Virus record (IMG/VR): IMGVR_UViG_3300023178_000048
Span: 1-63,320 of that record
Length of the DNA: 63,320 nucleotides
Strand: one strand, 5' to 3'
DNA from: a virus
Lineage: Duplodnaviria; Caudoviricetes
Made by a program: the position numbers and the translations under genes. This document shows positions 20,381-37,281 of this stretch, piece after piece. Positions within the stretch are counted from its first letter, which is position 1. The number at the start of each line of letters is the position of its first letter. Under the pieces are notes generated by a model, which saw only the letters and a list, made by a program, of their open reading frames with translations, ran no database searches and was not told the origin of the DNA.

Positions 20381-20458
20381 TTGAAACCAGTTATTTTTCC
20401 TCGCGCGTGCGCGTCAGTCTGGCTGACGCAATAAATAACGCGTCAGACCCCTCTGACA
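20381..20458 (+). repeat. Early regulatory module, copy 3 (no TTGACA)
   Basis: TTGAAACCAGTTATTTTTCCTCGCGCGTGCG + GTCAG-N5-CTGAC (20413) + GTCAGACCCCTCTGAC (20442). Confidence 0.85.
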
Positions 20459-20487
20459 CTAGGTAAACAGTATTACAAAATCAGCCT

Positions 20488-20853
20488 TGTTCCAGCGATG
20501 TTCTGCATTTGTTCCAATTTTCGGATATGGCGTGGAACAAGAATTTCCAGGTTTTATGCGGCTTCCAGCGATTCTGTTCCGTTGTTCCACGATTTTTAGG
20601 TATTACATGACTTTTTTAAAAATTAAACCTGATCGTTCGACAGCATATTGCGTTGCAAATCAGCAAATTGAATTTTCCAGCCATACCCTGAAAATCGTGG
20701 AACAACGGAACAGAAGTATTATATATATTATATTATTATTACTCTCTCTCCTCTATTTTAACACTTTTCAACCTAAATTAAAACCTTTACTCTTACAAAA
20801 ATCTTGTTCCATCTGTTCCAAGTAATACCACCCCGAAATGGAACAACGGAACA
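20488..20853. other. Origin-like non-coding region: TGTTCC/GGAACA repeats, 25-bp inverted repeat, AT-rich core
   Basis: At least 11 TGTTCC/GGAACA hexamers; perfect IR 20572-20596 / 20691-20715; A/T-only run 20717-20741. Confidence 0.55.
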
Positions 20854-20911
20854 AAACCGAGTTCCCCGCTAGACAAACCCTGCCGTCCTATCCCAAAATA
20901 GTTACATAATA

Positions 20912-20946
20912 CACTTGTATAAGTTGACAATCTAGTATATAATATA
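20912..20946 (+). promoter_or_regulatory. Early promoter (31/35 identical to 22227-22261)
   Basis: TTGTAT-17 nt-TATAAT. Confidence 0.7.
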
Positions 20947-21031
20947 AAGACGGTGGGGAACAAAAAGTACATCACCGTTAAGTAGTGCGTCAGACCCCTC
21001 TGACGTTTGCAATCACAAACTGGAGAACGAC

Positions 21032-21280
21032 ATGGAATACACAATCACGCTATACAACATCAAGACCCAGCGCGGTATGGAAGTCACCACTGTGACACCT
21101 TACGAATTGCATGACGCTTGCTTTCAAGTGTTTGAGTTTGTAAAGCAACATGCGCTGGACGACCGGGCGGAGATTAAGATAAACGGCAGAAAGTACGACT
21201 CAATCCGCGACTTGCACGACCGCTTGATTACACCGATTAATCGCTGTTCGTTAGCCGCTGGCGGTTGCCGCATCTTTTAA
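21032..21280 (+). CDS. Early hypothetical protein
   Basis: GGAG RBS; promoter and palindrome upstream. Confidence 0.7.
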   Translation: MEYTITLYNIKTQRGMEVTTVTPYELHDACFQVFEFVKQHALDDRAEIKINGRKYDSIRDLHDRLITPINRCSLAAGGCRIF

Positions 21281-21342
21281 GACAGGCTCATACAGGCTCA
21301 CGAGAGAATCACTTCACGTAAAAGTTTACTAACAGGAGAGTA

Positions 21343-21543
21343 ATGATGGAACTCGACGGATTCTTTATTGACAATGAACAATACATGGCTCTTGACAAAC
21401 TAAGCAAAGACTTACACGCCGGTAGCGATGCCATGCGGGACATCGGTCACAAACTGTGGTACCTGCTGGACTTCATATCTAAGCAAAGAATATCTGCGCG
21501 GGTGACGGCAGTTGAGGAGTGCGACGATGATAAGGTTCATTAA
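21343..21543 (+). CDS. Early hypothetical protein
   Basis: AGGAG RBS. Confidence 0.7.
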   Translation: MMELDGFFIDNEQYMALDKLSKDLHAGSDAMRDIGHKLWYLLDFISKQRISARVTAVEECDDDKVH

Positions 21544-21724
21544 GAGTACCGCTGTGTTTGTGTCTTGCTTGGCGCTGTGGGTTGGTATGTTTGTCATCTT
21601 GGTTGAGTGGATGGCGGGATGCGGAGAGACCTACTACACGCATAAGGGGAAACAGATTGGCGAGTGTGTGTTTATGGGGAAGTGGTCAGACTGGTCTGAC
21701 GCAGTAACAGGAGAAAGCAAATGA
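21527..21724 (+). CDS. Small membrane protein
   Basis: GAGGAG RBS; one TM segment then EWMAGCGE.Y.....IGECVF. Confidence 0.65.
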   Translation: MIRFIKSTAVFVSCLALWVGMFVILVEWMAGCGETYYTHKGKQIGECVFMGKWSDWSDAVTGESK

Positions 21725-22053
21725 AAGTAAAGACAAATGAACTAAGCGGGGTTGCGCTCGATTGGGCGGTGGGAAAGTGTGAAGGGGTTGTCAATGGCGA
21801 TGCGCTTGACATTGGTTTTATTAAAGAGGGAGGTTACACACCATCAACCGACTGGGGGCAGGGTGGGCCGATTATTGAGCGGGAGCAGATTGCTATTTAT
21901 TTAGGAGATGAAGATGAGTGGACGGGTTTAGATGGGTGGAAAAAAGGGACTGGCCCAACGCCCCTAATCGCCGCCATGCGTTGTTATGTAGCCAGCAAGT
22001 TGGGCGACGAGGTGGAAGTGCCCGATGAACTTTTGGAAGGAGAAAGCAAATGA
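21721..22053 (+). CDS. NinX/DUF2591-like phage protein
   Basis: KT.EL.G.ALDWAV, Y.PSTDW.QGGPIIERE, GPTPLIAAMRCYVASKLG. Confidence 0.8.
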   Translation: MKVKTNELSGVALDWAVGKCEGVVNGDALDIGFIKEGGYTPSTDWGQGGPIIEREQIAIYLGDEDEWTGLDGWKKGTGPTPLIAAMRCYVASKLGDEVEVPDELLEGESK

Positions 22054-22220
22054 ACATAGAAATACTTAGCGCATACGAGCGTGGCTTGGACGATGGGTTT
22101 TTCAGGGGTGAGCGTGTAAACATATCACTTAACAAATCGGATGATGAGCGCATAGCCTATAAATGTGGCTATGACCACGGCGTGTGGATGTACACCGAAA
22201 CGTGTGAACAAGAAAGTTAG
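22050..22220 (+). CDS. 56-aa protein with a ribosome modulation factor-like pattern (not in ORF track)
   Basis: AGGAG RBS; MNIEILSAYERGLDDGFFRGERVNISLNKSDDERIAYKCGYDHGVWMYTETCEQES. Confidence 0.6.
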   Translation: MNIEILSAYERGLDDGFFRGERVNISLNKSDDERIAYKCGYDHGVWMYTETCEQES

Positions 22221-22226
22221 GTAAAC

Positions 22227-22261
22227 CACTTGCACAAGTTGACAAACTACTATATAATATA
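22227..22261 (+). promoter_or_regulatory. Early promoter (duplicate of 20912-20946)
   Basis: TTGCAC-17 nt-TATAAT. Confidence 0.7.
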
Positions 22262-22356
22262 CATATGGTCGGGAAGCAACCGAGCATAGTGGCATTCAGT
22301 TCAATTCAGTTGTTTAACGTGTCAGACACCTCTGACGCATCAGTAAGGAGATAGTT

Positions 22357-22608
22357 ATGGGCGCTTTCAAGCAATTACTTATACAACACGCCGAGGCGGG
22401 GTTGACATTACCACCGCATCCCAAGGCATACATACTTATGCGTAGCAACGTGCCGATTGGTGCGTACTACAACGAGCAGACCGCTGACTATGAGCGACAC
22501 ATTGCTCAGTTGGGCGATGAGGTGCAAGACGAATGGCACGAGTATTCAATACACGAAGTGCCAATGGAACAAGCAACCATCGACGACTTACTACAGCGGA
22601 GTAACTAA
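22357..22608 (+). CDS. Early hypothetical protein
   Basis: TAAGGAG RBS directly after a palindrome copy. Confidence 0.7.
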   Translation: MGAFKQLLIQHAEAGLTLPPHPKAYILMRSNVPIGAYYNEQTADYERHIAQLGDEVQDEWHEYSIHEVPMEQATIDDLLQRSN

Positions 22609-22610
22609 CC

Positions 22611-22829
22611 ATGTCAAAGATGAAGCCGATTTGCCGCGACTGCGGCGAGACATACGCACCCGCTAGGAAAGCAGCGGGGTTCCGAGTTTGCCTTGAGTGT
22701 GGCGAGGCGCAAGCCAAAGCCGCTAGGAAACATTGGTGCGTCGCACCCATGCACAAGTCAAACTATATGCTATTCACACAGAAAGCCGACCTTGTCGGCA
22801 TCAACAACAAAGGCGGGTTAGTCAAATGA
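22611..22829 (+). CDS. DksA/TraR-type C4 zinc-finger protein
   Basis: CRDCGETYAPARKAAGFRVCLECGE; C-terminal PMHKSNY...NNKGG. Confidence 0.7.
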   Translation: MSKMKPICRDCGETYAPARKAAGFRVCLECGEAQAKAARKHWCVAPMHKSNYMLFTQKADLVGINNKGGLVK

Positions 22830-23113
22830 GAAGGGAATTAGATTTGTACACAAAAATTCACAAGCAACGATGGATGGACATGCTTGAGAACCACGAGCAC
22901 ATGAAGCAGACAATCCTCAAGATGTTGGAGAACCCTGCAACCGAGCCAGAGCAGTTAGCCCTAGCCCATAAGGCTTACGCTAGTGTATGCAAAGCGTTGC
23001 AGGAGACGAGTTTTATTTTGGATGTGTACCTACGCACGGGCGTCAAGCCCACGGATGAACAAGTTAAAAACTTTACCGAAGTGGTGGAGGAACTAAAAGG
23101 GGCAATCAAATGA
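22826..23113 (+). CDS. Hypothetical helical protein
   Basis: ATGA overlap at 22826; coupled to the next gene. Confidence 0.65.
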   Translation: MRRELDLYTKIHKQRWMDMLENHEHMKQTILKMLENPATEPEQLALAHKAYASVCKALQETSFILDVYLRTGVKPTDEQVKNFTEVVEELKGAIK

Positions 23114-23418
23114 AATACGAAACACACAACGATACGTACATTGATATTGACGGCACATGCTTGCAGGGGAGAGTCGGAGCCGACTATAAACAATTGGTCA
23201 GACTATTCGGACAGCCTACTGAAGGCGACGGGTGCAAGACAGACGCCGAGTGGGAAGTTAAGTTTTCGGATGGCGTCGTGGCTACGATTTACAACTGGAA
23301 AGACGGTCATAACTTTTGTGGGGAGGGCGGTAAGGATACAAACAAGATTAAGCGTTGGAATGTTGGTGGGCGTTCGCAGAGCGCCATTGTTAATGTGTTA
23401 AACATACTGGAGAAATGA
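23110..23418 (+). CDS. Conserved phage protein
   Basis: GTCLQG, LFGQP, KTDAEW, ATIYNWK, WNVGG. Confidence 0.7.
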   Translation: MKYETHNDTYIDIDGTCLQGRVGADYKQLVRLFGQPTEGDGCKTDAEWEVKFSDGVVATIYNWKDGHNFCGEGGKDTNKIKRWNVGGRSQSAIVNVLNILEK

Positions 23419-23419
23419 G

Positions 23420-24331
23420 ATGGAAATTCAATCACCAGACCATGTGGTAAGCCTTGCGTCATCGGGCGTACTGGTCAATATCGACATCAAAGTATGGTCT
23501 GCTACCAAACAGGATAAGGGTATCAGTGAGGAAGTAGCGGGTGCGTACAAGGCAAGCAAGGATAGCGGCAGGTACACCAAAAACTTGCTGGCTAACCATC
23601 CTAAACACCGCGCGCTGGCTAACCATAGGCAGACCATGCGTAACTGGCTTCAACGTAGGGCGTATCCGTGGCACGACCAGCTCAACTACGTTCCGACTGT
23701 GTTGCTAGATAAATTTATGAAGGAGTACAGAGAGTACGAGGCGGAGCACGCCAAGTTACGGGATGAGTTTATTGAGGCTTATCCGAACATCATCAGCGAC
23801 ATGGCGTTTAAGAATGGCGATATGTTTAATCGGTCAGACTACCCTGACGCACAAGATTTGATGTCCAAGTTCACAATGAATCTGTATGTCACAGAGGTTC
23901 CAACCAACGACTATCGCAATGCTATATCGCAAGATATTGCAGAGGACTTGAAGAAGCATTACAACAAGCAAGCCGAGAAGTTCGTCGATGCAATCATGCA
24001 GAAGACGGGCGAACAGTTGGTAACGTTTGCAACACGTATTAGTAATGCATGTCGTGATGTAACTGACGAAGAGGGGCGCAAACGCAATCCGAAAATTTAT
24101 TCGGGAACGCTTGAACAAGCCAAAGAATTATGTGATACTTTGTCAAGTTTCAATCTGACCAAGAATCCGGTCATCGAACAGGCGCGTTCAAAACTAGCCG
24201 AGAGTCTCAGGGGAGTAGACGCACAAACGTTACGGGACAGTAGCGTGATGCGTAGTGAAGTGAAAGAGTCAGCGGATGAAGTGTTAGACGTTCTTAAGAA
24301 GTTTGACATGAACCCTGATATGTTTGATTAA
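23420..24331 (+). CDS. Conserved helical protein (DUF3150-like) upstream of AAA-VWA
   Basis: WSATKQD, G.YTKNLL, FNRSDYP, FNLTKNP; position typical of this three-gene unit. Confidence 0.6.
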   Translation: MEIQSPDHVVSLASSGVLVNIDIKVWSATKQDKGISEEVAGAYKASKDSGRYTKNLLANHPKHRALANHRQTMRNWLQRRAYPWHDQLNYVPTVLLDKFMKEYREYEAEHAKLRDEFIEAYPNIISDMAFKNGDMFNRSDYPDAQDLMSKFTMNLYVTEVPTNDYRNAISQDIAEDLKKHYNKQAEKFVDAIMQKTGEQLVTFATRISNACRDVTDEEGRKRNPKIYSGTLEQAKELCDTLSSFNLTKNPVIEQARSKLAESLRGVDAQTLRDSSVMRSEVKESADEVLDVLKKFDMNPDMFD

Positions 24332-24366
24332 TCGTCAGCGCAGTCTGACACATTTGGAGAAGCAAG

Positions 24367-25476
24367 ATGGCAAGAGCAAATACCCTACCTATGGTGGACA
24401 TCGACGAGTGCAAGAAACTGATTCGCACCATCGGTGATAAAGCAAGTGTGATGATTATTAGTGAGCCGGGCGTTGGCAAATCGTCAATCCTGAAAGCACT
24501 AGCCGAAGACTTTGGTGACAAGTGGCGTAGCCCGAAGGATGAGTATCCCGAAGACAAGTACGACTACATCTACGTTGACTGTCCTAACAAAGAATTGATG
24601 GACGTTGCGGCGTCGATTCCTAATCACCAGTCGAAGACGCTTGAGTATTACGTTTCTAGTTTGTTCAAATTAGACAACGGCAAGCCTAAAGTGATTATGC
24701 TTGACGAGATGCTCAAAGCGCCGAAGATGATGCAGGTCTTGTTCACTAGGCTGGTTCTTGAGCGGTTCGTCGGTGACAAGGCGCTACCCGAAGGTTCGTT
24801 ATTGTTTATCACATCCAACAATGCGACTGATGGCGTTGGCGACTCAATGCTTGCCCACGTTGGCAATCGTATCGTTAAGGTTCATATGGCAAAGCCGACT
24901 GCGTTGCAGTGGTCACAATGGGCTACCGCCAACAACATCTCAAGTTCAATTCGTACTTGGGTTGTTATGAATCCACGAGTGATGGCGTCTTATATTGATG
25001 GCGACCAAGACGATAACGAGTTCATCTTTAAGCCTAGCAGTACAGTTAAGCAGTTTGCATCGCCTCGGTCATTGGCAATGGCTGACCCAATCGTTAGGAA
25101 TAGCGACATCCTAGGCGAGAACACTACGCTTGCGGCTCTGTGCGGCACTATCGGTGAAGCGGCGGCTCGGTCTCTGACTGCGACCATACGACTTGAGAAG
25201 AATATCGCTAAGTATGAGGACATCATTGCCGACCCGCTTGGCGCTGTCTGTCCGCAAGAGGACGTTGCGGCGTTGCTCATGACGATGTTCCAAGGCGTTG
25301 ACCGGATTGATTCGCACGACGAGTTGAGTAAGTTTATGACTTGGGTTGAGCGCGTGAAACGTGAGGAAGTTCAGTCAATATTCTTTACGTTGATGATGCG
25401 TATGAAAATCAAACTAGCAGGTCAGAACGACAAGATTCGTCAGTGGGCTAAGACTAACCTTGAGTTGATGGGGTAA
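24367..25476 (+). CDS. MoxR-like AAA+ ATPase
   Basis: Walker A SEPGVGKS, Walker B IMLDE, SPRS sensor motif. Confidence 0.85.
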   Translation: MARANTLPMVDIDECKKLIRTIGDKASVMIISEPGVGKSSILKALAEDFGDKWRSPKDEYPEDKYDYIYVDCPNKELMDVAASIPNHQSKTLEYYVSSLFKLDNGKPKVIMLDEMLKAPKMMQVLFTRLVLERFVGDKALPEGSLLFITSNNATDGVGDSMLAHVGNRIVKVHMAKPTALQWSQWATANNISSSIRTWVVMNPRVMASYIDGDQDDNEFIFKPSSTVKQFASPRSLAMADPIVRNSDILGENTTLAALCGTIGEAAARSLTATIRLEKNIAKYEDIIADPLGAVCPQEDVAALLMTMFQGVDRIDSHDELSKFMTWVERVKREEVQSIFFTLMMRMKIKLAGQNDKIRQWAKTNLELMG

Positions 25477-25480
25477 GAAC

Positions 25481-26695
25481 ATGGTAGACCAAGTAACAAG
25501 ATTGAAGCGGTCACACATCCGCTTGATGAAGAACAAACGCACTGCCTTGTATAGCGGGGTGCTGATGCTCGGCGATTCGGAGATTGTCTCTAACTGCAAG
25601 ACTGCATACACAGATGGGGTCAACAAGCGGTACGGCGAGGCTTTTATGTCAGGACTGTCTGACGCGGAGTTTAACGCCGTTGTCATGCATGAGAATCTGC
25701 ACGTTGCGCTGAAGCACTTACCGCTACACAAACGCAAGTGGAAAGAGAACGCCAAAGCCGCGAACATTGCGGCGGACTTTGTTGTGAACGACATCATTTA
25801 TCAATTGGAGAGGTGGGACAGCGACTTTATTAAGTTGCCTAAGTGTGCTTTGTATGATGATAAGTATCACAATTGGTCTTTCGATCAGGTGTACCGTGAC
25901 TTAATGGATAAATCATCTACGTCAAAGAAGCCCGGTAGTTGTCAGCAGGGTGATGGCAATGGTGACCCGCTTGATGGTATGGAGCCACTTGACGAGCACG
26001 ACTACGAGTCAGAGGTGTCTGACGCGAAAGGTAACGAACTATCTGATAAACAGATAGCCGATGCTGTAGACAGTGCTTTGCGTGAAGGCGGTATGCTTGC
26101 AGGGAAAGTAGGCGGCGATATGCCTAGAGCAATCAAAGATTTGCTTACACCGCAGGTTGATTGGCGTGAGGAACTACGGGAGTGGGTGAGCGAATTTGCC
26201 GTGGGTAAAGATGAGTACACATTCCGTAAGTTTGATAGGCGTCACATCGTCAATGATTTGTATATGCCAACCACTTATTCCGATACGGTAGGCGACTTGG
26301 TTGTTTGTATTGATACATCAGGTTCAATTGGTCAGCATCAAATCAATGAGTTTGCGACAGAACTGGCTTCAATTACAGAAAGCGTTACGCCAAGCGGTAT
26401 ACGAATATTGTGGTGGGATACTATAGTGAGGGGTGACCAACGGCTTGAACCGACTCAGTATTCAAGTCTTAAGACGCTTCTCAAACCCAAGGGAGGTGGG
26501 GGCACTAGCATTGCTTGTGTTCCTAAGTACATTAAAGATAAGAACATAGAAGCAGAGGCGGTTATTGTCTTTACCGACGGTTACCTAGACGATGAGGACA
26601 AGTGGTCATCAAACGCGCCGACGCTTTGGCTTGTAACGCAAAACCAAAACTTTGTCCCGACAATGGGTAAAAAAGTTAAATTCAACCTTGATTAA
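25481..26695 (+). CDS. Metallopeptidase-like + VWA domain protein (DUF2201-like)
   Basis: TAYTDG, HENLH (HExxH), NIAAD..VN; MIDAS DTSGS, GGGGT, FTDG. Confidence 0.88.
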   Translation: MVDQVTRLKRSHIRLMKNKRTALYSGVLMLGDSEIVSNCKTAYTDGVNKRYGEAFMSGLSDAEFNAVVMHENLHVALKHLPLHKRKWKENAKAANIAADFVVNDIIYQLERWDSDFIKLPKCALYDDKYHNWSFDQVYRDLMDKSSTSKKPGSCQQGDGNGDPLDGMEPLDEHDYESEVSDAKGNELSDKQIADAVDSALREGGMLAGKVGGDMPRAIKDLLTPQVDWREELREWVSEFAVGKDEYTFRKFDRRHIVNDLYMPTTYSDTVGDLVVCIDTSGSIGQHQINEFATELASITESVTPSGIRILWWDTIVRGDQRLEPTQYSSLKTLLKPKGGGGTSIACVPKYIKDKNIEAEAVIVFTDGYLDDEDKWSSNAPTLWLVTQNQNFVPTMGKKVKFNLD

Positions 26696-26709
26696 CAGGA
26701 GAAACCAAG

Positions 26710-28061: not shown

Positions 28062-28063
28062 CA

Positions 28064-30408: not shown

Positions 30409-30409
30409 T

Positions 30410-30988: not shown

Positions 30989-31011
30989 CTCACCATGTTT
31001 GGAGTCGTAGC

Positions 31012-31629: not shown

Positions 31630-31855
31630 AGAAGAGTTCAGAGAGTTAGATTTACTTCTAGGAGACGCAAGAAATGAAAACAGAATCTTACGACACAGAT
31701 TGGATAAAGCCTTGGATGAGGCCGTGCGACTACGACAAGCACTGGAAGGCATCCTCGCCCTATCCTACCAATCCATTTATCCGAGTCAATCCCAAGGAGT
31801 TAGTGAAGGCCCACCGAATGTGGGAGAAGCAGCAACAGAAATCGGGGCAGACTGA
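31619..31855 (+). CDS. Small coiled-coil protein
   Basis: GAGGAG RBS; heptad ENRILRHRLD. Confidence 0.5.
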   Translation: MPSEEEFRELDLLLGDARNENRILRHRLDKALDEAVRLRQALEGILALSYQSIYPSQSQGVSEGPPNVGEAATEIGAD

Positions 31856-31886
31856 CCTTGACGATCTAGGCGAAGCGCCATTTTGA
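31674..31886 (+). CDS. Small hypothetical protein overlapping the previous ORF
   Basis: AGGAG RBS; PFIRVNPKEL...LGEAPF. Confidence 0.45.
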   Translation: MKTESYDTDWIKPWMRPCDYDKHWKASSPYPTNPFIRVNPKELVKAHRMWEKQQQKSGQTDLDDLGEAPF

Positions 31887-31908
31887 AAGGAGTAAACTAA
31901 TGTAATAC

Positions 31909-31938
31909 TTGACAAACTGATATTTGACCGCACATAAT
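31909..31938 (+). promoter_or_regulatory. Sigma70-like promoter for replication genes
   Basis: TTGACA-18 nt-CATAAT. Confidence 0.5.
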
Positions 31939-31969
31939 CACGATTCAATTTTTTTGGAGAAAGCAAATC

Positions 31970-32413
31970 ATGCGTAAAACATCACGTAGACAGAAAATCA
32001 TTCAGCAAATCAAACTTGGCAAGACCAACCAAGAGATACTTAGTTCCATCAGAGGCGTCACCAAGTCTCAGGTGTATAACGCTCGATGGGAGTTTAATAA
32101 GTCAGCGGGGTCTGACGAAGTAGTTAAAGCCAAGCGACCAGTCGGGCGACCAAAGAAAGTTATAACATTAACGCCTAGCGGAGTCGAACTTTTAGATAAG
32201 CTCGCATCCCATGATAGGAACAAGGTGGTTAACAATCCGCCTCACTACACTGATGGCGGTATGGAAGTTATTGACTTTATCGAAGCCAAGAAACTAAACT
32301 ATCACCTAGGCAACGTAGTAAAGTACGTGTCACGAGCGGGTAAGAAAGACAATGCGCGAACAGACTTAGAAAAAGCTAAGTGGTATCTAGAAAGAGCCAT
32401 CGAGCGTATATAG
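31970..32413 (+). CDS. DUF3310 (T7 gp1.7-like nucleotide kinase) protein with N-terminal HTH/AT-hook-like extension
   Basis: VNNPPHY..GG.E.ID.I....GN..KY..RAG.K...DL.KA.WYL; RPVGRPKK. Confidence 0.8.
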   Translation: MRKTSRRQKIIQQIKLGKTNQEILSSIRGVTKSQVYNARWEFNKSAGSDEVVKAKRPVGRPKKVITLTPSGVELLDKLASHDRNKVVNNPPHYTDGGMEVIDFIEAKKLNYHLGNVVKYVSRAGKKDNARTDLEKAKWYLERAIERI

Positions 32414-32454
32414 TCTTAAGCGGGGGCTTGTCCCCCGCTGCCCCCGGAGAACAG

Positions 32455-34335
32455 ATGTCGTTAATTACACTAGACTTTGAGACTTACTATTCAAAGTCGT
32501 TCAGCCTATCTAGGCTACCCACAGAAGAATATATACGGTCACCTGAATTTGAGGTGATTGGCGTCGCTATAAAGATTGACGAAGGCGAAGTAGTATGGCA
32601 TGCCGGTAACAAAGAGGCCCTACGCAAAACTTTGTTGGCGCTCGATTGGAAGAACAGCGCCCTGCTTTGCCACAACACAATGTTTGATGGAGCCATACTT
32701 AAATGGTTCTTTGGTATAACCCCCAAATACTATCTAGACACGCTATGCATGGCTAGAGCCGTTCACGGCGTAGAAGTCGGAGGTTCGCTCGCGGCGTTAG
32801 CAGAAAGATACCAAATAGGCAAGAAAGGCACAGAAGTAGTCAACGCGCTTGGTAAGTATCTAGCTGATTTCAACGAAGAAGACTTGGCGCGGTATGGTGA
32901 GTATTGCCGTAATGACGTTCAGTTAACGTTTGACTTGTTCGCTAGGCTTGGCGCAAATATAGACGAGTCTGAGTTGGACTTGATTGATATGACAATCAGG
33001 ATGTTTACGCATCCGAAACTACAAGTTGATGTTGAACTGCTTGAGAAGCGGCTGGTAGAACTTAAAGAAGAAAAGCTTGAGCTACTGTCTTCACTAAAGG
33101 AAAAACTTAAATGTGAGACAGAAGAAGACGTCCGTAAGAAACTGTCATCTAACCAGCAGTTTGCCAATGTGCTTAGGGATTTTGGTGTTGAGCCAAAGAT
33201 GAAGATAAGCAAAACTACGGGCAAAGAAACCTTGGCGCTGGCTAAAGGCGATCCGGAGTTTATTGAGTTAACTGAACACGAAAATTCATTCATCCAGCAC
33301 CTATGCACTGTGCGTCTAGGCACTAAGTCAACCATTGAAGAATCGCGCATACAGCGTTTCATAGACATAAGTAAGCGTAATCGCGGCGCGCTACCGATAC
33401 CATTGAAATACTACGGCGCCCACACTGGGCGGTGGTCGGGCTACGACAAAGTTAACTTTCAGAACCTACCTAGCCGCGACCCGAAAAAGAAAACGCTAAA
33501 ACAAGCAGTGATAGCGCCAGAAGGTTATGTTGTTATCAACTGTGACTCTTCTCAGATTGAGGCGCGGGTGCTTGCTTGGCTATCCGGTCAGACTGATCTG
33601 ACACAATCTTTTGCCGACAAAGAAGACGTTTACAAAATAATGGCGGCTTCCATCTATGACAAAGATAGGGAAGATATAACCAAAGACGAGCGATTCGTTG
33701 GTAAGACAACTATCCTAGGATGCGGCTACGGCATGGGAGCAAAGCGCTTTGCGTTGCAGTTAAAGACGATGGGCGTTGACATGACCGAGGACGAAGCCAA
33801 ACGAATCATAGATGTATACCGTAGCGAATACAGCAATATAAAAAACTTATGGTACGAGGCCGATAGATTTATAGATACTATGCTGGCTCAGGATTTCAAA
33901 GAGACGCTATATTTTGGTCAGCATAAGTGCGTCAAGGTCTACAACGACGGCATCACCCTACCCAATGACTTACGTATATCTTACAAAAACCTACGCCGCG
34001 AGAATGTACCGAGCGAGCACGAGGGCGAGCCACCGGTATCTAAGATTGTCTATGACTCGCGTAAGGGAAAGGTATTCTTATGGGGCGGCACGTTCGTAGA
34101 GAACGTTATTCAAGCCTTGGCGCGAATCATTGTGGGTGAGCAGATGCTCGCTATTAACAAGAAATACCAAGTGGTGCTGACCGTCCACGATGCGGCGGTA
34201 GTAGTCGTGCCTGAAGACGAGGCTGACGAGGCCGTTGAGTATATAACTGGCATCATGTCTACGCCCCCCACTTGGGCGTCTACGCTCCCGGTAGCCTGTG
34301 AGGCAGAGTTTGCACAACGCTACGGCGACTGTTAA
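32455..34335 (+). CDS. polA: Family A DNA polymerase with 3'-5' exonuclease
   Basis: ExoI LDFET, ExoII HN.MFD, ExoIII YC.ND; TGRWS, NFQNLP, DSSQIEAR, R..GKTTILGCGYG, VHD; start re-called to ATG 32455. Confidence 0.95.
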   Translation: MSLITLDFETYYSKSFSLSRLPTEEYIRSPEFEVIGVAIKIDEGEVVWHAGNKEALRKTLLALDWKNSALLCHNTMFDGAILKWFFGITPKYYLDTLCMARAVHGVEVGGSLAALAERYQIGKKGTEVVNALGKYLADFNEEDLARYGEYCRNDVQLTFDLFARLGANIDESELDLIDMTIRMFTHPKLQVDVELLEKRLVELKEEKLELLSSLKEKLKCETEEDVRKKLSSNQQFANVLRDFGVEPKMKISKTTGKETLALAKGDPEFIELTEHENSFIQHLCTVRLGTKSTIEESRIQRFIDISKRNRGALPIPLKYYGAHTGRWSGYDKVNFQNLPSRDPKKKTLKQAVIAPEGYVVINCDSSQIEARVLAWLSGQTDLTQSFADKEDVYKIMAASIYDKDREDITKDERFVGKTTILGCGYGMGAKRFALQLKTMGVDMTEDEAKRIIDVYRSEYSNIKNLWYEADRFIDTMLAQDFKETLYFGQHKCVKVYNDGITLPNDLRISYKNLRRENVPSEHEGEPPVSKIVYDSRKGKVFLWGGTFVENVIQALARIIVGEQMLAINKKYQVVLTVHDAAVVVVPEDEADEAVEYITGIMSTPPTWASTLPVACEAEFAQRYGDC

Positions 34336-34369
34336 CATATAGCTCCCTTTACAAACCGGAAGATTTAGT

Positions 34370-35029
34370 ATGAATACAGTCAAGTGGTCGTTCTCCAGTC
34401 TAAAAGATTACATTAACTGCCCACGGCAGTACCAAGAAATTAAAGTTCTCAAGCGGTTCCATAAGGCGCCAACTCAGCAAACACTTTATGGTCAAGAAGT
34501 ACATAGGGCACTAGAGGACTATGTCAAAGACGGCACGCCGCTTGCGAAGAACTATCAGAAATACAAACCTCAGCTAGACCCGCTTAGAGATATGCCGGGT
34601 GATAAGTACCCCGAGCATCGCATGGCGCTGACCATTGACAAAGAACCATGCAAGTTCGGGTCGCCCGACTATTGGGTACGAGGTATTGCTGACTTAGTGG
34701 TGGTGGATGGAGACACAGGCTTCATAGTTGACTATAAAACGGGGAAGTCAACCTATCCTGACCTGAAACAGTTGCAGTTGATGGCGCTTATGGCGTTTGC
34801 CCATTTTCCGCAATTAGAGCGTATAAAGGGCGGATTACTTTTTGTCGCCTACGAAGATTTCTTCACTTCTGAGTACACGCGGGATAAAATTGATGAATAC
34901 TGGGAGTCGTTCAACGAACCACTGACTCGGTTACAGTTTTCTTTAGATAACGACACTTGGCAAGAAAACCCGACAGGGCTTTGCGGGTGGTGTCCAGTAT
35001 CTATATGTCAACACTACAAGGAAAGGTAG
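34370..35029 (+). CDS. Cas4-like PD-(D/E)xK exonuclease
   Basis: WSFSS...CPR; RGIAD...IVDYKTGK...QL; C-terminal CGWCP..C. Confidence 0.85.
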   Translation: MNTVKWSFSSLKDYINCPRQYQEIKVLKRFHKAPTQQTLYGQEVHRALEDYVKDGTPLAKNYQKYKPQLDPLRDMPGDKYPEHRMALTIDKEPCKFGSPDYWVRGIADLVVVDGDTGFIVDYKTGKSTYPDLKQLQLMALMAFAHFPQLERIKGGLLFVAYEDFFTSEYTRDKIDEYWESFNEPLTRLQFSLDNDTWQENPTGLCGWCPVSICQHYKER

Positions 35030-35031
35030 AC

Positions 35032-35229
35032 ATGCAGGTTTCAGGTTTAATCGACTACGCAAAACCAATGATGGATGCAGAACAAGCGTTGAAAAATATG
35101 CATCAAGCGGCGCTACATAAAGACTTTGAGATCGCTAAAGAGTTTGCGCTTGAGGCTATGAGCTATACAAAGCTGGCTATGCATTCCATCACAATCATGG
35201 AAGAAGACAAAAATGGCTTACGTCAATAA
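35032..35229 (+). CDS. Small hypothetical protein
   Basis: LIDYAKPMM.AE.ALK motif; RBS present. Confidence 0.6.
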   Translation: MQVSGLIDYAKPMMDAEQALKNMHQAALHKDFEIAKEFALEAMSYTKLAMHSITIMEEDKNGLRQ

Positions 35230-35533
35230 AAAACGCCCTTACAAGAAAGAGTATCAGCAACAAAAAGCGCGTGGCGAACACGCTAACCGTATGGAGCGTC
35301 AACGCCTCCGGCGAAAAGTCGATAGCGAAGGTCGAGATGCTAACGGTAACGGTAAAGCCGATGCGCGTGAGGGCAGAGACTTATCGCATAACAAAGCGCT
35401 AGGCAAGGGTGGTTCAAACGCCGATGGTTACAAGATTAAGTCCGCCAGTGCGAATCGTTCGTTTCGCCGTGACTCAAATGGTAAGTTGGTGTCTGAAACA
35501 AGCAAGCGAGAAAAAAAGCGAAAAAAAGCTTGA
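35213..35533 (+). CDS. HNH-like basic protein
   Basis: RPYKKEY...GRDLSH.KAL.KGGSN...S.S.NRSF. Confidence 0.65.
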   Translation: MAYVNKKRPYKKEYQQQKARGEHANRMERQRLRRKVDSEGRDANGNGKADAREGRDLSHNKALGKGGSNADGYKIKSASANRSFRRDSNGKLVSETSKREKKRKKA

Positions 35534-35558
35534 CAAACTAGAAAATCGCCCCTACATT
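35530..35558 (+). promoter_or_regulatory. Sigma70-like promoter upstream of the helicase
   Basis: TTGACA-17 nt-TACATT. Confidence 0.65.
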
Positions 35559-35564
35559 AGGGGC

Positions 35565-35677
35565 TGCGACTGTAAGGCATGAGTGGGTCGCACAGGTTTG
35601 TATATCTACCTGATCAACCATGTCAGCCGAGCGGGGCTCAAACGTTTTCTTGTCGTCTCCGGCTCGACAGGCTCGGC
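35565..35677 (+). ncRNA. Candidate structured 5' leader RNA
   Basis: Four stems plus a 6-bp pseudoknot between promoter and helicase RBS (see findings). Confidence 0.4.
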
Positions 35678-35697
35678 ACAAACAGTTTTGAGGTAGT

Positions 35698-37281
35698 ATG
35701 GAAGTAGTTTTAGATAGTGCGATTAAGTTTAAGGCTCCGGTTGAACACGCCGAGCATATAACTCGCGCCATTGATAAAAGCGAGATTCTGAACGTAGCGT
35801 CAGGCGTTGCTGACGTCCTAGTTAACTGGGAACTAGACGAGATGAAAACACTCGCTAGATACGTTCCGCACGACATAAAAATTCCATCCCCCATAGTAAG
35901 AGAGTACGACTGGCCCGGCTTGTTCAAGCCATTCCAGCATCAAATAGAGACCGCTGAGTTTCTGTCCTTACGACAACGAGCATTCTGCTTCAACGAAGCC
36001 GGTACTGGTAAAACGTCAGCCGCTATTTGGGCGGCGGACTACTTAATGAAAAAAGGGCTGGTACATCGCGTCTTAGTTGTGTGTCCGCTGTCCATCATGT
36101 ACTCAGCGTGGCAAGCCGATCTATTCAAAACAGTCATGCATAGGCGTAGCGCTGTGGCTTACGGATCGGCGTCTAGGCGCAAGAACATAATTGAAAGCAC
36201 CCCGCATTACGAGTTTATCGTAACTAACTATGACGGCGTGGGCGTCATGCACAAAGAAATCAAAGAGGGCGGCTTTGACTTAATCATCGTTGACGAAGCT
36301 AACGCTTATAAGAATGTATCGACAGTTCGCTGGAAGAAACTATCAAAGATAATTGACGCGACTACATACGTTTGGATGATGACCGGCACACCGGCATCGC
36401 AGTCGCCTATGGATGCTTTTGGTCTGGCTAAGATAATCAACCCCAACGGCATAACCCGCACTGCTACGGCTTGGCGCGATAGAGTGATGTATCAGGTAAC
36501 TAGATTTAAGTGGTTACCCAAAGCAGAATCAAAACAGACGGTATTTGACGCGCTACAACCAGCCATCAGATTTAATAAGAACGAGTGCCTAGACTTGCCT
36601 GACGTCATGTACCAAACTAGGGAAGTACCGCTGACGCCACAAGCCTTGTCTTTCTATAAGAAACTCAAAAACGATATGATGATTAAGGCGGCGGGCGAAG
36701 AAGTTAGCGCAGTCAATGCCGCCGCCGCTTTGAATAAGTTACTTCAGTTGTCGGGTGGCGCAATCTACACGGACAACCAAGAAGTGCTTGAGTTTGACAT
36801 AGGCCCCCGCAAGCAGGCGCTTAAAGAGGTTCTAGAAGAGACCGAGCACAAAGTCATTGTGTTCGTGCCGTACCGTCACACGATTGAGTTAGTAAGTAAC
36901 TTTCTGCGCTCAGAAGGCTATACTGTCGAAATCATATCAGGCGATGTTACTGCTAGAGAGCGCGGCGAAATATTCAACCGCTTTCAAACAACGAACAATC
37001 CGCACGTGTTGGTGATTCAGCCGCAAGCGGCGTCGCATGGCGTAACCCTAACCGCAGCCAATACGGTTGTGTTTTGGTCGCCGGTAATGTCAGTCGAGAC
37101 TTATATGCAGTGCGTCGCGCGTATTGATAGGGTAGGTCAAAAGAACAAGATGACTGTTGTTCATCTTCAAGGGTCGGAGGTAGAACGTCGTGTATTTAAT
37201 ATGTTGATGGATAAAAAAGAATTACACGAGGGCTTAGTTGATCTTTATAAACAGGAAATGGAAGGAGAAAATAATGGTTGA
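35698..37281 (+). CDS. SNF2-family helicase
   Basis: Q motif PFQHQ, EAGTGKT, VVCPLS, IVDEA, MTGTP, GVTLT, ARIDRVGQ. Confidence 0.92.
   Translation: MEVVLDSAIKFKAPVEHAEHITRAIDKSEILNVASGVADVLVNWELDEMKTLARYVPHDIKIPSPIVREYDWPGLFKPFQHQIETAEFLSLRQRAFCFNEAGTGKTSAAIWAADYLMKKGLVHRVLVVCPLSIMYSAWQADLFKTVMHRRSAVAYGSASRRKNIIESTPHYEFIVTNYDGVGVMHKEIKEGGFDLIIVDEANAYKNVSTVRWKKLSKIIDATTYVWMMTGTPASQSPMDAFGLAKIINPNGITRTATAWRDRVMYQVTRFKWLPKAESKQTVFDALQPAIRFNKNECLDLPDVMYQTREVPLTPQALSFYKKLKNDMMIKAAGEEVSAVNAAAALNKLLQLSGGAIYTDNQEVLEFDIGPRKQALKEVLEETEHKVIVFVPYRHTIELVSNFLRSEGYTVEIISGDVTARERGEIFNRFQTTNNPHVLVIQPQAASHGVTLTAANTVVFWSPVMSVETYMQCVARIDRVGQKNKMTVVHLQGSEVERRVFNMLMDKKELHEGLVDLYKQEMEGENNG

What the first reader, a model, noticed from the sequence alone, without database searches (positions are those of the whole stretch)
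20442..35814. Candidate new system: early arm marked by 13 perfect GTCAG-N6-CTGAC palindromes, mostly inside genes
Seen (manual scan): perfect sites at 20442, 20989, 21685, 22321, 23833, 24334, 25648, 26008, 26733, 28159, 32101, 33587 and 35799, with one-mismatch sites at 18806, 19657, 23197, 34747 and 37519. About 0.06 perfect copies are expected in 63 kb. I found none in the ~39-kb late arm (only near-matches at 8626 and 47024). Density falls with distance from the early end. All 13 are followed by a purine, 12 by RY. Nine are intragenic, eight in one frame (Ser-x-x-[SPA]-Asp). 26008 is the exact reverse complement of 22321. Established: 5-N6-5 is dimeric-HTH geometry (as in CRP sites), and dispersed intragenic palindromes typify parS/matS/Noc-type organiser sites more than simple operators. 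Inference: a phage protein coats the early arm to silence it as a domain (possibly an integrase-free dormant state), protect or mark incoming DNA, or aid entry or partition. An RNA-hairpin role is possible but does not explain sites upstream of -35 elements.
Basis: partly seen in the sequence, partly recalled or inferred. Interest (0 to 1): 0.9.

Follow-up and report, generated by a model that had tools for sequence, protein, structure and literature searches.

The report
Lineage-specific palindromes punctuating phage early genes
An uncultured 63-kb phage carries 13 identical-armed 16-bp palindromes only in its early-gene arm, and its many relatives each carry their own version, which points to an unidentified fast-evolving regulator that controls the whole early programme.

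Summary
The window holds 13 perfect GTCAG-N6-CTGAC sites, against 0.07 expected. All lie in the + strand early arm. The enrichment survives codon-preserving shuffles.

It is not peculiar to this phage. 46 of 83 loci anchored on the VWA gene have at least 4 copies of one palindrome of their own. The variants include TTCAC-N6-GTGAA, TCCAC-N6-GTGGA, TTCAG-N6-CTGAA, TTCGAC-N4-GTCGAA, CCTAGA-N4-TCTAGG and CTGAC-N3/N5-GTCAG. In four near-complete relatives every copy sits in a 6-10 kb stretch of the early arm.

Sites abut early sigma-70-like promoters, fill stop-codon-to-Shine-Dalgarno gaps, or recur in the same tolerant linker of long genes.

Four results favour a double-stranded DNA site for a symmetric dimer:
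- the spacing is strict;
- half-site extensions occur in both orientations;
- there is no base-pair covariation beyond the arms;
- some sites lie in poorly transcribed DNA behind strong terminators.

I read the sites as a stoperator-like operator array that shuts off the early arm.

The binding protein is not identified. The best candidate by elimination is a novel-fold, predicted-homodimeric first early protein (18909, 19750), and the evidence for it is weak. An RNA-hairpin role is not excluded.

The parts
17848..42012 (+). Early/replication arm. All genes are on the + strand and every perfect palindrome lies inside it.
   Evidence: ORF map; GC-skew switch; DNA polymerase, helicase and primase hits
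20442..20457 (.). Perfect site GTCAGACCCCTCTGAC. It sits in the third terminator-promoter module, 116 nt after the stop of gene 19750-20325.
20989..21004 (.). Perfect site, 27 nt upstream of the ATG at 21032.
21685..21700 (.). Perfect site, 20 nt upstream of the ATG at 21721.
22321..22336 (.). Perfect site, 20 nt upstream of the ATG at 22357.
23833..23848 (.). Perfect site inside the 303-aa core gene at relative position 0.45. It is orthologous to TTCAGAGTACCCTGAA in L062, L068 and L074.
24334..24349 (.). Perfect site, 2 nt after the stop of the 303-aa gene and 17 nt before the ATPase ATG. L007 has a site at the same junction.
25648..25663 (.). Perfect site inside the VWA/DUF2201 gene at relative position 0.14.
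26008..26023 (.). Perfect site in the acidic linker of the VWA gene at relative position 0.43. Relatives of seven motif classes carry their own palindrome in this linker.
26733..26748 (.). Perfect site at codons 8-13 of gene 26710-27708.
28159..28174 (.). Perfect site inside the Hjc/VRR-NUC-like nuclease gene.
32101..32116 (.). Perfect site inside the HTH-DUF3310 gene 31970-32413.
33587..33602 (.). Perfect site inside the DNA polymerase gene. It is the only intragenic site in the other reading frame.
35799..35814 (.). Perfect site near the start of the helicase gene.
18806..18821 (.). One-mismatch site, 2 nt upstream of TTGACA in the promoter of gene 18909.
19657..19672 (.). One-mismatch site, 2 nt upstream of TTGACA in the promoter of gene 19750.
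23197..23212 (.). One-mismatch site inside gene 23110-23418.
34747..34762 (.). One-mismatch site inside the PD-(D/E)XK nuclease gene.
37519..37534 (.). One-mismatch site inside gene 37278-37675.
19628..19642 (.). GTCAG-N5-CTGAC variant, 14 nt upstream of site 19657.
20413..20427 (.). GTCAG-N5-CTGAC variant, 14 nt upstream of site 20442.
18697..18857 (+). Repeated regulatory module 1. Order: strong intrinsic terminator, conserved GATACCAGTT block, palindrome, then a TTGACA promoter with an 18-nt spacer.
19552..19708 (+). Repeated regulatory module 2, with the same layout as module 1.
20335..20470 (+). Repeated regulatory module 3. It has a terminator and a perfect site, but the promoter hexamers have decayed.
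18909..19547 (+). EA1a, the first-early-gene family. This is the candidate palindrome binder by elimination only.
19750..20325 (+). EA1b, a paralogue of EA1a at 37% identity.

Best explanation
The palindromes are operator-type DNA sites for a symmetric, probably dimeric, phage-encoded regulator. Its sequence specificity evolves quickly, and its sites are kept along the whole early arm.

In this phage the protein would bind at three kinds of place:
(a) beside the -35 element of the tandem early promoters;
(b) in the short gaps between a stop codon and the next Shine-Dalgarno sequence;
(c) where genes are long, in coding segments that tolerate the motif.
This leaves a site roughly every 0.5-1.5 kb.

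I infer that occupancy turns the early arm down once enough protein has been made. It would do so by hindering the promoters and by blocking elongating host RNA polymerase, as mycobacteriophage stoperators do. I also infer that divergence of the motif gives each lineage private control of its own early genes.

Shown here: the sites, their clade-wide and lineage-specific conservation, their placement and their symmetry. Inferred: binding to double-stranded DNA, repression, and the identity of the protein. The best candidate is the first early protein family at 18909 and 19750.
For: Enrichment and strict geometry:
- 13 sites against 0.07 expected.
- Only N6 (13 sites) and N5 (2 sites) spacings occur, and isolated half-sites are not enriched.
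- The enrichment survives codon-preserving shuffles, with 0 of 1000 reaching the observed count.

Clade-wide conservation with changed sequence:
- 46 of 83 VWA-anchored loci carry at least 4 copies of one palindrome of their own.
- 29 of 79 EA1-anchored loci do so, after dropping 5 low-complexity cases.
- All 4 further loci that I examined carry TTCA-N8-TGAA in 10-12 copies.

Restriction to the early arm in near-complete relatives:
- 11 of 11 sites lie within 9 kb of a 59,966-bp genome.
- 7 of 7 lie within 9.1 kb, 7 of 7 within 5.7 kb, and 5 of 5 within about 10 kb.

Orthologous sites change symmetrically. GTCAG..CTGAC in the window matches TTCAG..CTGAA at the same codons of the 303-aa gene.

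The VWA linker carries an own-motif site in 12 of 45 loci from seven motif classes. 11 of the 12 lie at relative position 0.3-0.5.

Signs of a DNA-level, symmetric reading:
- The GTCAGAC extension occurs 6 times on the left and 5 times on the right.
- There is no Watson-Crick excess at 15 mirrored flank or spacer pairs, in 84 TCCAC-class and 91 TTCAC-class sites.
- Of 195 one-mismatch sites, 104 break pairing outright.
- Sites 18806, 19657 and 20442 lie 75-100 nt behind terminators with 12-14-bp stems. Two of them lie 2 nt before a TTGACA hexamer.
- In relatives the first site lies beside or over promoter elements, at variable distance from the -10.

Candidate protein (EA1):
- It is found in almost every locus that reaches that far (47 members).
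- It and the 27705 family are the only universal, fast-evolving families that the window also has.
- Its identity drops from 88% between loci with the same motif to 47% and 27% between loci with different motifs, while core proteins stay at 67-86%.
- A homodimer model scores 0.81 against a best control of 0.00. That mark was reached by 20 of 30 proteins solved as pairs of one chain and by 1 of 23 proteins solved as single chains. The runs agree in at least 85% of contacts and the partner's pLDDT is at least 80.

Precedent. Stoperators are dispersed and lineage-specific, and they co-vary with their repressor (PMC6550527, passages read).
Against: No protein is shown to bind the sites.
- EA1 has no recognisable DNA-binding fold. 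Its model has pLDDT 89.5, but the best PDB match has E 0.5 and TM 0.2. It has no Pfam or PDB sequence match.
- The EA1 column that best tracked motif class (LR[W/F]) fails in L341 (TCCAC with W) and in L363 (TTCAG with Y). That column also lies in the modelled dimer interface.
- L341's EA1 is closer overall to the TTCAG/GTCAG type, yet its motif is TCCAC.

About half of all sites sit immediately 5' of ribosome-binding sites. In L013 the repeat extends through the Shine-Dalgarno sequence to the ATG. That fits an RNA or translational role equally well.

As RNA the 13 sites would fold at -5.3 to -11.2 kcal/mol.

The +1 purine is found in 13 of 13 sites, but the mirrored -1 pyrimidine in only 8 of 13 (Fisher p 0.039). 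Mismatches that give G.U outnumber those that give A.C, 57 to 34. Both are weak hints of strand asymmetry.

Some lineages have the arms in swapped order with N3 or N5 spacing. A single conserved dimer architecture does not easily explain this.

Repression rather than activation is inferred only from analogy and from the variable geometry relative to promoters.
Confidence: 0.45

Rival explanations
1. The element acts as an RNA hairpin in the early polycistronic transcripts. A lineage-specific phage RNA-binding protein or endoribonuclease would recognise the stem. It would process, stabilise or translationally silence each cistron, in the manner of a coat-protein operator, Cas6/Csy4 or the T7 RNase III sites.
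For: - 148 of 459 sites in relatives have an ORF start within 45 nt downstream, and 224 of 459 are not inside a + strand ORF.
- Many sites lie exactly between a stop codon and the Shine-Dalgarno sequence. In L046 the 3' arm abuts AAGGAG. In L013 the repeat includes the Shine-Dalgarno sequence and the ATG.
- The predicted RNA hairpins fold at -5.3 to -11.2 kcal/mol.
- Sites occur only in co-directionally transcribed DNA.
- G.U-type mismatches outnumber A.C-type, 57 to 34.
- The downstream purine is invariant, 13 of 13.
Against: - Stem sequence, not pairing, is what is conserved. There is no pairing excess at the 6th pair or in the flanks across 175 sites.
- 104 of 195 one-mismatch sites destroy a pair.
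- Of the five early-arm one-mismatch sites in the window, only one (37519) keeps a wobble pair.
- Spacer asymmetry occurs in both orientations, so the loops would be C-rich in some copies and G-rich in others.
- The three promoter-module sites lie behind strong terminators and upstream of promoters.
- There is no Rfam family match.
- No RNase or RNA-binding domain was found in the scanned proteins.
Confidence: 0.25
2. The sites nucleate a ParB, Noc or MatP-like organiser that coats or compacts the early arm. Its purpose would be partition, a dormant episomal state, or protection of incoming DNA, rather than transcription control as such.
For: - The sites are 16-bp palindromes clustered around an origin-like iteron region (20470-20990) and thinning with distance.
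- Spacing is regular and is maintained even inside genes.
- From recall, the commonest half-site in relatives (TTCAC/GTGAA) resembles the arms of bacterial parS.
Against: - No ParB/Srx, ParA, integrase, protelomerase or other plasmid-maintenance domain was found in the window's proteins that were scanned.
- The nearby ATPase is an AAA/MoxR-like protein paired with a VWA protein, not a ParA.
- The genome layout is that of a lytic podovirus-like phage. Its nearest cultured relatives at the terminase level are lytic marine or freshwater isolates.
- parS-type sites are usually conserved across lineages, not lineage-specific.
Confidence: 0.12
3. The palindromes are boundaries of mobile regulatory cassettes. 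Like the PeSL promoter-terminator motifs of T4-type phages, they would be short conserved intergenic repeats that mainly serve as homologous-recombination points for shuffling early genes.
For: - The sites flank many small, lineage-variable early ORFs.
- The three modules in the window combine a terminator with a promoter.
- The 3.9-kb gap without sites (28175-32100) coincides with genes that have no homologue in relatives.
- PeSLs are described in PMC4122927 (abstract read) and PMC2839356 (search listing only).
Against: - Sixteen base pairs is very short for homologous exchange.
- Sites are conserved inside core genes at orthologous positions, with symmetric sequence change.
- The strict dyad and N6 spacing are not needed for recombination.
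- Every copy in a genome changes in concert between lineages, which requires a trans-acting reader.
Confidence: 0.05
4. The palindromes are hairpin promoters of the kind that phage N4's virion RNA polymerase reads on extruded single-stranded DNA. The 2286-aa virion protein would be the polymerase.
For: - The VWA/ATPase module's nearest cultured homologues are N4-like phages, at 27-31% identity.
- A giant protein is encoded next to ejection proteins.
- Relatives L005 and L075 have a 7-bp stem with a 3-nt centre.
- Sites lie 6-35 nt upstream of ribosome-binding sites.
Against: - The 2286-aa protein has no T7-like polymerase motifs and no PDB or PHROG match. Its only domain hit is LPD38.
- Clear sigma-70-type TTGACA promoters head the early arm.
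- In L046 the palindrome abuts the Shine-Dalgarno sequence, leaving no room for a leader.
- Many sites are intragenic.
- The loops vary and occur in both orientations.
Confidence: 0.04
5. The sites are binding sites of a host global regulator that each phage lineage has adopted according to its own host.
For: - The 5-N6-5 geometry is that of many bacterial dimeric regulators (recall).
- No phage-encoded reader was identified here.
Against: - Close relatives carry unrelated palindromes. L064 and L075 have core proteins 68-77% identical, yet one has CCTAGA-N4-TCTAGG and the other CCTGAC-N5-GTCAGG.
- L010 (TTCAC) and L026 (TCCAC) have core proteins 76-86% identical.
- Host regulators change specificity far more slowly than this.
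- The same 16-mer occurs in L007, whose proteins are only 28-38% identical to the window's.
Confidence: 0.05

Closest known systems
Stoperators and operators of Cluster A mycobacteriophages (L5, Bxb1) with their immunity repressor
   Same: - There are many dispersed sites of one sequence per genome. Some lie in promoters, but most do not.
- The motif differs between lineages and co-varies with the repressor.
- Bound repressor blocks elongation.
Source: PMC6550527, passages read; PMC9283540, listing and start of the abstract only.
   Different: - Stoperators are 13-bp asymmetric sites. They are read by a monomer and are oriented with transcription. They lie across both genome arms of temperate phages and serve lysogenic immunity.
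- Here the sites are 15-18-bp dyads and are confined to the early arm.
- This phage has no sign of lysogeny functions, and its reader is unidentified.
Conserved inverted repeats (CIRs) bound by the phiC31 c repressor (recalled; not found in the searchable library)
   Same: - A palindromic operator at the regulator's own promoter is repeated in many highly conserved intergenic copies through the early region.
   Different: - phiC31 is an integrating temperate actinophage with a known repressor family.
- The only link to that family here is a sub-threshold language-model hit of EA1, at 0.78.
- Intragenic copies and lineage-specific turnover are not known features of CIRs, to my recollection.
PeSL composite promoter/terminator motifs of T4-type phages
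   Same: - These are short repeated intergenic elements that punctuate early, variable genes and combine promoter and stem-loop parts (PMC4122927, abstract read).
   Different: - PeSLs are recombination points in hyperplastic regions and are not known to need a dedicated reader.
- The present sites are strict dyads, occur inside core genes, and change in concert between lineages.
KorB OB sites of plasmid RK2, C1 operators of phage P1 and parS/ParB (recalled)
   Same: - One palindromic or fixed site is repeated about 10-20 times over a replicon and is bound by one global regulator that silences many operons.
- parS sites cluster near origins.
   Different: - No ParB/KorB-like or C1-like protein was detected.
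- Those systems serve plasmid or prophage maintenance.
- Their sites are conserved within a family rather than differing in each lineage.
N4 virion-RNA-polymerase hairpin promoters and lambda-type boxB/N pairs (recalled)
   Same: - These are short dyads in the early region whose sequence co-evolves with a phage-specific reader.
   Different: - They are few (2-3 per genome), they act as single-stranded DNA or RNA hairpins, and their readers are known families.
- None of those readers was found here.

Membership tests
Stoperator/immunity-repressor system (Cluster A mycobacteriophages) | Tens of dispersed copies of one short site per genome, mostly away from promoters | tested here: met
   13 perfect and 5 near-perfect sites. 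Only 2-3 are next to promoters.
Stoperator/immunity-repressor system (Cluster A mycobacteriophages) | [quoted passage not shown] | tested here: not met
   The sites are dyad-symmetric. The half-site extension occurs 6 times on the left and 5 times on the right.
Stoperator/immunity-repressor system (Cluster A mycobacteriophages) | Site motif differs between lineages and co-varies with the repressor | tested here: inconclusive
   Motif turnover is shown. The partner protein is not identified, and the EA1 covariation has 2 exceptions.
Stoperator/immunity-repressor system (Cluster A mycobacteriophages) | Temperate phage with a repressor gene and integration or partition functions | tested here: not met
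   No integrase, ParAB or known repressor family was found in the scanned proteins. Not every small ORF was scanned.
ParB-parS / Noc / MatP-type organiser | A ParB/Srx, Noc or MatP-family protein encoded with the sites | tested here: not met
   Pfam and PHROG scans of 60 window proteins gave no such domain.
ParB-parS / Noc / MatP-type organiser | Palindromic sites clustered around the origin | tested here: met
   The sites start beside the iteron and AT-rich region at 20470-20990 and thin out over about 17 kb. That this region is an origin is itself inferred.
ParB-parS / Noc / MatP-type organiser | Protein spreading or bridging from the sites | not testable with these tools
   This needs ChIP-seq or biochemistry.
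N4-type hairpin promoters | Virion-packaged T7-like RNA polymerase | tested here: not met
   The 2286-aa protein has no polymerase motifs B or C, no PDB or PHROG hit, and only an LPD38 domain.
N4-type hairpin promoters | 5-7-bp stem with a 3-nt loop, a few copies at the genome end | tested here: not met
   In the window the stems are 5-6 bp and the loops 4-6 nt. The 13 copies are spread over 15 kb, and 9 are inside ORFs.
PeSL mobile regulatory cassettes | Composite early promoter plus stem-loop terminator in intergenic hyperplastic regions | tested here: inconclusive
   Three modules have this make-up. Most palindromes stand alone without promoter or terminator parts.
PeSL mobile regulatory cassettes | Confined to gene boundaries | tested here: not met
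   9 of 13 sites are intragenic. Internal sites recur in the VWA, ATPase and 303-aa genes of relatives, in 12 of 45, 17 of 44 and 17 of 44 loci.
Known RNA families (Rfam 15) | Match at the gathering score | tested here: not met
   There were 0 matches in the whole window.

The most novel reading that the evidence does not exclude
A large, uncultured clade of about 60-kb phages (at least 479 IMG/VR contigs) runs its early programme through a private address code. In this reading a novel-fold homodimer, made from the very first transcripts (the EA1 family), reads a lineage-specific dyad that is written every kilobase or so into the early arm, even into coding linkers. It then closes that arm as a unit.

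Rapid co-divergence of reader and sites, including swapping of the arm order, would give lytic phages a form of regulatory heteroimmunity or incompatibility during co-infection.
Probability: 0.2. Interest if true: 0.85.

Novelty: new variant of a known kind. Interest (0 to 1): 0.66.

Why it matters
Dispersed arrays of regulator sites are known from a few temperate phages and plasmids. There they underlie immunity and global silencing.

Here the same logic appears in a widespread environmental clade that looks lytic. It takes a dyad form, is limited to the early arm, and its sequence has been rewritten many times among close relatives.

That provides a natural series of reader-site pairs for studying how DNA-binding or RNA-binding specificity and dozens of target sites evolve together. 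It also provides a ready sequence signature for sorting these uncultured phages into regulatory types. If the sites are operators, the pairs could serve as orthogonal repressor-operator parts.

The finding also shows that coding sequences in these phages are shaped by a non-coding constraint.

Tried and rejected
Close DNA relatives. A megablast of 16 kb against 50,697 phage records found none.

The giant 2286-aa protein as a polymerase. There was no PHROG hit, no PDB hit and no polymerase motif. I dropped the idea.

- Its recognition helix has Trp in the TTCAC, TTCAG, GTCAG and CTGAC lineages and His, Ser or Tyr in the TCCAC lineages.
- The HTH domain is undetectable in 27 of 47 loci that carry a palindrome in at least 4 copies. 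Some of those loci are truncated.
- It is also undetectable in 0 of 5 longer contigs, which are 37-83% complete.

It is present in 5 of 5 relatives and in 395 IMG/VR stretches. However, one helix type (VSRM/VTRM..SWFRG) goes with TTCAC, TCCAC, ATCAG and CTTCA motifs alike. It more likely reads something conserved.

HTH 29641. It has no homologue in 84 loci.

EA1.
- Pfam scans of 39 members gave nothing consistent.
- The PDB profile search gave nothing below E 0.06.
- The fold search gave nothing.
- The protein atlas gave only sub-threshold leads: DUF3102 at 0.79 and phiC31-type repressor c at 0.78.

The 27705 family. It showed the largest fall in relative identity between same-motif and different-motif pairs, 0.81 to 0.45. 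These pairs are not phylogenetically independent. Its confident model (pLDDT 88) has no PDB match, and the atlas gave no usable hit.

Families D343, D320 and U151. They diverge strongly with motif change, but the window lacks them.

Conserved flanks around the TCCAC and TTCAC sites (A at -9, TA at -6/-5, mirrored at +20/+21 and +24). I first read these as an extended 36-bp dyad. They are confounded by stop codons upstream, by TAAGGAG downstream and by orthologous copies, so I make no claim.

Metatranscriptomes. Three RNA runs (X18-X20) hold 8-25% of the sampled words. The laid contigs are short, at depth 2-5, and may be DNA carry-over. Some bridge sites (18806, 24334, 25648) and one starts 9 nt after 26008. 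There is no consistent pattern, and contigs cannot show RNA ends.

Metagenome scan for the exact 16-mer. It gave 116 or more stretches, mostly single chance hits. The 12 stretches with two or more GTCAG-N6-CTGAC sites share no protein with the window.

Cultured relative DSL-LC04 (terminase 53% identical). It has a different early layout, and I did not analyse it further.

Supplements of papers were not requested, and figures S1-S2 of PMC6550527 could bear on the stoperator comparison.

Full report
**1. What is in the window**

The window is a complete IMG/VR virus record of 63,320 bp. Genes on the + strand run from about 17.8 to 42.0 kb. They include a MoxR-like ATPase, a VWA/DUF2201 protein, a family-A DNA polymerase, a helicase and a DUF927 primase. 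Minus-strand structural genes lie on both sides. They include terminase, portal, capsid, tail fibres, an ejection protein and a 2286-aa protein with an LPD38 domain.

No cultured phage is close. The best protein identities are:
- 32% for the polymerase, to the Pseudomonas phages KPP25 and phiR18 and to Rhizobium phages;
- 27-31% for the VWA protein, mostly to N4-like phages;
- 53% for the terminase, to phage DSL-LC04 and pelagiphages of the HTVC023P type.

Near-identical DNA occurs in salt-marsh metagenomes. Ten runs not flagged as a possible source hold 70-96% of the sampled words.

**2.

- Thirteen perfect GTCAG-N6-CTGAC sites lie at the stated coordinates, against 0.07 expected.
- Eight one-mismatch sites exist against about 1.4 expected.

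The enrichment is not a by-product of coding.
- A codon-preserving shuffle gives a mean of 0.33 intragenic sites and a maximum of 3. Nine are observed, and 0 of 1000 shuffles reach nine.
- Eight of the nine share one frame.

The arrangement, not the pentamer, is what is enriched.
- Only N6 (13 sites) and N5 (2 sites) spacers occur among spacers 0-14.
- Isolated half-sites are no commoner in the early arm than in the late arms.

Distances between neighbouring sites have a median of 851 bp. One gap of 3.9 kb (28175-32100) is the exception. That gap coincides with nine genes that have no homologue in any of 84 related loci. It is probably a later insertion.

**3. Context in the window**

The start of the arm holds three tandem units. 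Each unit has this order:
- an intrinsic terminator with a 12-14-bp stem;
- a conserved block (GATACCAGTT...);
- in units 2 and 3, a GTCAG-N5-CTGAC dyad;
- 14 nt further on, the N6 dyad;
- 2 nt further on, TTGACA, an 18-nt spacer and a weak -10.

The first two N6 dyads carry one mismatch. The third is perfect, but its promoter hexamers have decayed. These units drive two paralogous genes of unknown function, which I call EA1a (18909) and EA1b (19750).

An origin-like region follows at 20470-20990. It has eight TGTTCCA/TGGAACA iterons within 600 bp and an AT-rich stretch.

Downstream, four sites lie 17-27 nt before a start codon (20989, 21685, 22321, 24334). The rest lie inside genes.

**4. The decisive comparative result**

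I anchored a search on the VWA protein and recovered 80 related loci out of at least 479 in IMG/VR. Anchoring on EA1 gave 79 more.

Each relative has its own dominant palindrome.
- 46 of 83 VWA-anchored loci carry at least 4 copies of one 5-bp-arm dyad.
- 29 of 79 EA1-anchored loci do so, once five low-complexity cases are set aside.
- Four loci that seemed to lack one have TTCA-N8-TGAA in 10-12 copies.

The classes found are:
- TTCAC-N6-GTGAA
- TCCAC-N6-GTGGA
- TTCAG-N6-CTGAA
- CTCAG-N6-CTGAG
- GTCAG-N6-CTGAC
- TTCGAC-N4-GTCGAA
- CCTAGA-N4-TCTAGG
- TGTCG-N8-CGACA
- two classes with the window's arms in swapped order: CCTGAC-N5-GTCAGG and CTGAC-N3-GTCAG.

In four near-complete genomes every copy lies in one stretch of the early arm. 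The counts are 11 of 11 in 9 kb, 7 of 7 in 9.1 kb, 7 of 7 in 5.7 kb and 5 of 5 in about 10 kb.

Placement is the same as in the window. Sites lie beside or over the first promoters and in the gaps between a stop codon and the Shine-Dalgarno sequence. They also recur in particular coding segments.
- Of 459 sites, 224 are not inside a + strand ORF, and 148 have an ORF start within 45 nt downstream. These totals include the five low-complexity loci.
- The acidic linker of the VWA protein holds an own-motif site in 12 of 45 loci from seven motif classes. 11 of those 12 lie at relative position 0.3-0.5. The window's site 26008 is at 0.43.
- At the orthologous codons of the 303-aa gene the window has GTCAGACTACCCTGAC, where L062, L068 and L074 have TTCAGAGTACCCTGAA. 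Both outer bases have changed symmetrically.

Close relatives can differ completely.
- L064 and L075 have core proteins 68-77% identical but unrelated dyads.
- L010 (TTCAC) and L026 (TCCAC) have core proteins 76-86% identical.
- Conversely, L007 and L009 share the window's exact 16-mer although their proteins are only 28-38% identical to the window's. I cannot explain this.

A concerted change of many scattered copies requires a trans-acting reader that co-evolves with them.

**5. DNA or RNA?**

For a duplex-DNA site read by a symmetric dimer:
- The spacing is strict.
- The half-site extension GTCAGAC occurs 6 times on the left and 5 times on the right. The spacer is therefore C-rich in some copies and G-rich in others relative to transcription.
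- Across 84 TCCAC-class and 91 TTCAC-class sites, none of 15 mirrored flank or spacer pairs shows more complementarity than base composition predicts.
- 104 of 195 one-mismatch sites break pairing.
- Three sites lie behind strong terminators and just upstream of promoters.
- In relatives the first site lies at varying distances from the -10, sometimes over the -35 region. That suits an operator better than a fixed-geometry activator site.

For an RNA role:
- Sites hug ribosome-binding sites.
- The L013 repeat runs through the Shine-Dalgarno sequence to the ATG.
- The hairpins would be moderately stable, at -5.3 to -11.2 kcal/mol.
- G.U-type mismatches outnumber A.C-type, 57 to 34.
- The downstream purine is invariant, 13 of 13, while the mirrored upstream pyrimidine occurs in 8 of 13 (p 0.039).

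Rfam has no match. The metatranscriptome contigs were too sparse to help. I weigh DNA over RNA at roughly two to one.

**6. The reader protein**

I could not identify it.
- Among families that are both universal and fast-evolving, the window has only EA1 and the 27705 family.

Points in favour of EA1:
- It is the first gene of the arm in almost every locus that reaches that far.
- It is often duplicated.
- It is flanked by sites.
- Its identity falls from 88% between same-motif relatives to 47% and 27% between different-motif relatives, while core proteins stay at 67-86%.
- It is modelled with confidence as an all-helical protein with one small hairpin (pLDDT 89.5).
- A homodimer model scores 0.81 against a best control of 0.00. 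That mark was reached by 20 of 30 proteins solved as pairs of one chain and by 1 of 23 proteins solved as single chains. The runs agree in at least 85% of contacts and the partner's pLDDT is at least 80.

Points against EA1:
- It has no similarity in sequence or fold to any DNA-binding protein.
- The alignment column that tracked the motif best fails in two lineages and lies in the modelled dimer interface.
- First early genes of lytic phages are often anti-defence proteins, which also evolve fast (general knowledge).

EA1 is therefore a candidate by elimination only.

**7. Mechanism proposed**

A phage-encoded dimer made early binds the dyads. At the promoter modules it hinders initiation. 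Along the operon it blocks elongation at intervals of about 1 kb. The early arm is thereby shut as a unit when replication and late expression take over. This follows the stoperator precedent (PMC6550527, passages read).

Motif divergence would make control private to each lineage.

The ParB/Noc-type organiser, the RNA element, the PeSL-like recombination cassette (PMC4122927, abstract read), the N4-type hairpin promoter and the host-factor site are kept as rivals, with the weights given.

**8. Novelty**

My literature searches found stoperators and PeSLs. They found no description of this clade's dyads. These searches cover open-access full text only. The phiC31, P1, RK2 and N4 comparisons are from recall.

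I file the finding as a new variant of the known kind "dispersed regulator-site array". It differs in five ways:
- its dyad symmetry;
- its restriction to the early arm;
- its maintenance inside coding linkers;
- its repeated rewriting among close relatives, including the swapped arm order;
- its occurrence in a large, apparently lytic, uncultured clade.

Noticed in passing
window 20470-20990: An origin-like non-coding region. It has eight TGTTCCA/TGGAACA iterons within 600 bp, in both orientations, and a long AT-rich run. The same heptamer clusters next to the first palindromes in relatives whatever their palindrome class: 36 of 162 loci have at least 4 copies within 600 bp.
   Followed up: partly
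window 18860-18895 and 19708-19740: The leaders of both EA1 genes hold a short GC stem followed by a T run, right after the promoter. They look like attenuators, which hints at regulated read-through of the first early genes.
   Followed up: no
window 38556-38858: A 100-aa HTH protein just upstream of the primase gene is conserved in 5 of 5 relatives tested and in 395 IMG/VR stretches. Its recognition helix is nearly constant (..SR.T.H.WFRG). It is a better candidate for reading the conserved iterons or late promoters than for reading the palindromes.
   Followed up: partly
window 28366-31855: A block of nine genes has no homologue in 84 related loci and no palindrome. It includes a 2OG-Fe(II) oxygenase and an HTH protein. 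It is probably a recently acquired island inside the early arm.
   Followed up: partly
window 42002-48862 (- strand): A 2286-aa protein sits next to the ejection protein. Its only domain hit is LPD38 at the C-terminal end. It contains a HELVH metallopeptidase-like motif near residue 944 and long Ala/Gly/Pro-rich stretches. It has no polymerase motifs.
   Followed up: partly
window 22611-22829: A 72-aa C4 zinc-ribbon protein is conserved in 48 of 84 loci. From recall, the spacing of its cysteines resembles TraR/DksA-type proteins that bind RNA polymerase. Pfam hits are below threshold.
   Followed up: no
window 8724-9543 (+ strand): Two + strand genes sit inside the minus-strand late arm. One is a GNAT acetyltransferase. 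The one-mismatch palindrome at 8626 lies just upstream of them.
   Followed up: no
window 23290-23310 and 28290-28308: In DNA run X8 a contig joins 28308 back to 23290 with four extra letters, and loose ends sit at 23310 and 28290. This suggests a population variant rearranged across the 303-aa, ATPase and VWA block.
   Followed up: no
L174 (metagenome contig, 3089 bp), positions 410-1473: Six GTCAGAC....CTGAC-type palindromes lie within 1.1 kb of a contig that shares no protein with the window. L165 and L185 carry three identical copies at a period of about 450-480 bp. These are unrelated elements that use the same dyad.
   Followed up: no
L007 and L009 (IMG/VR): These contigs carry the window's exact 16-mer at syntenic junctions although their proteins are only 28-38% identical. 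Nearer relatives, at 46-52% identity, use other dyads. Motif class therefore does not follow core-gene relatedness.
   Followed up: partly
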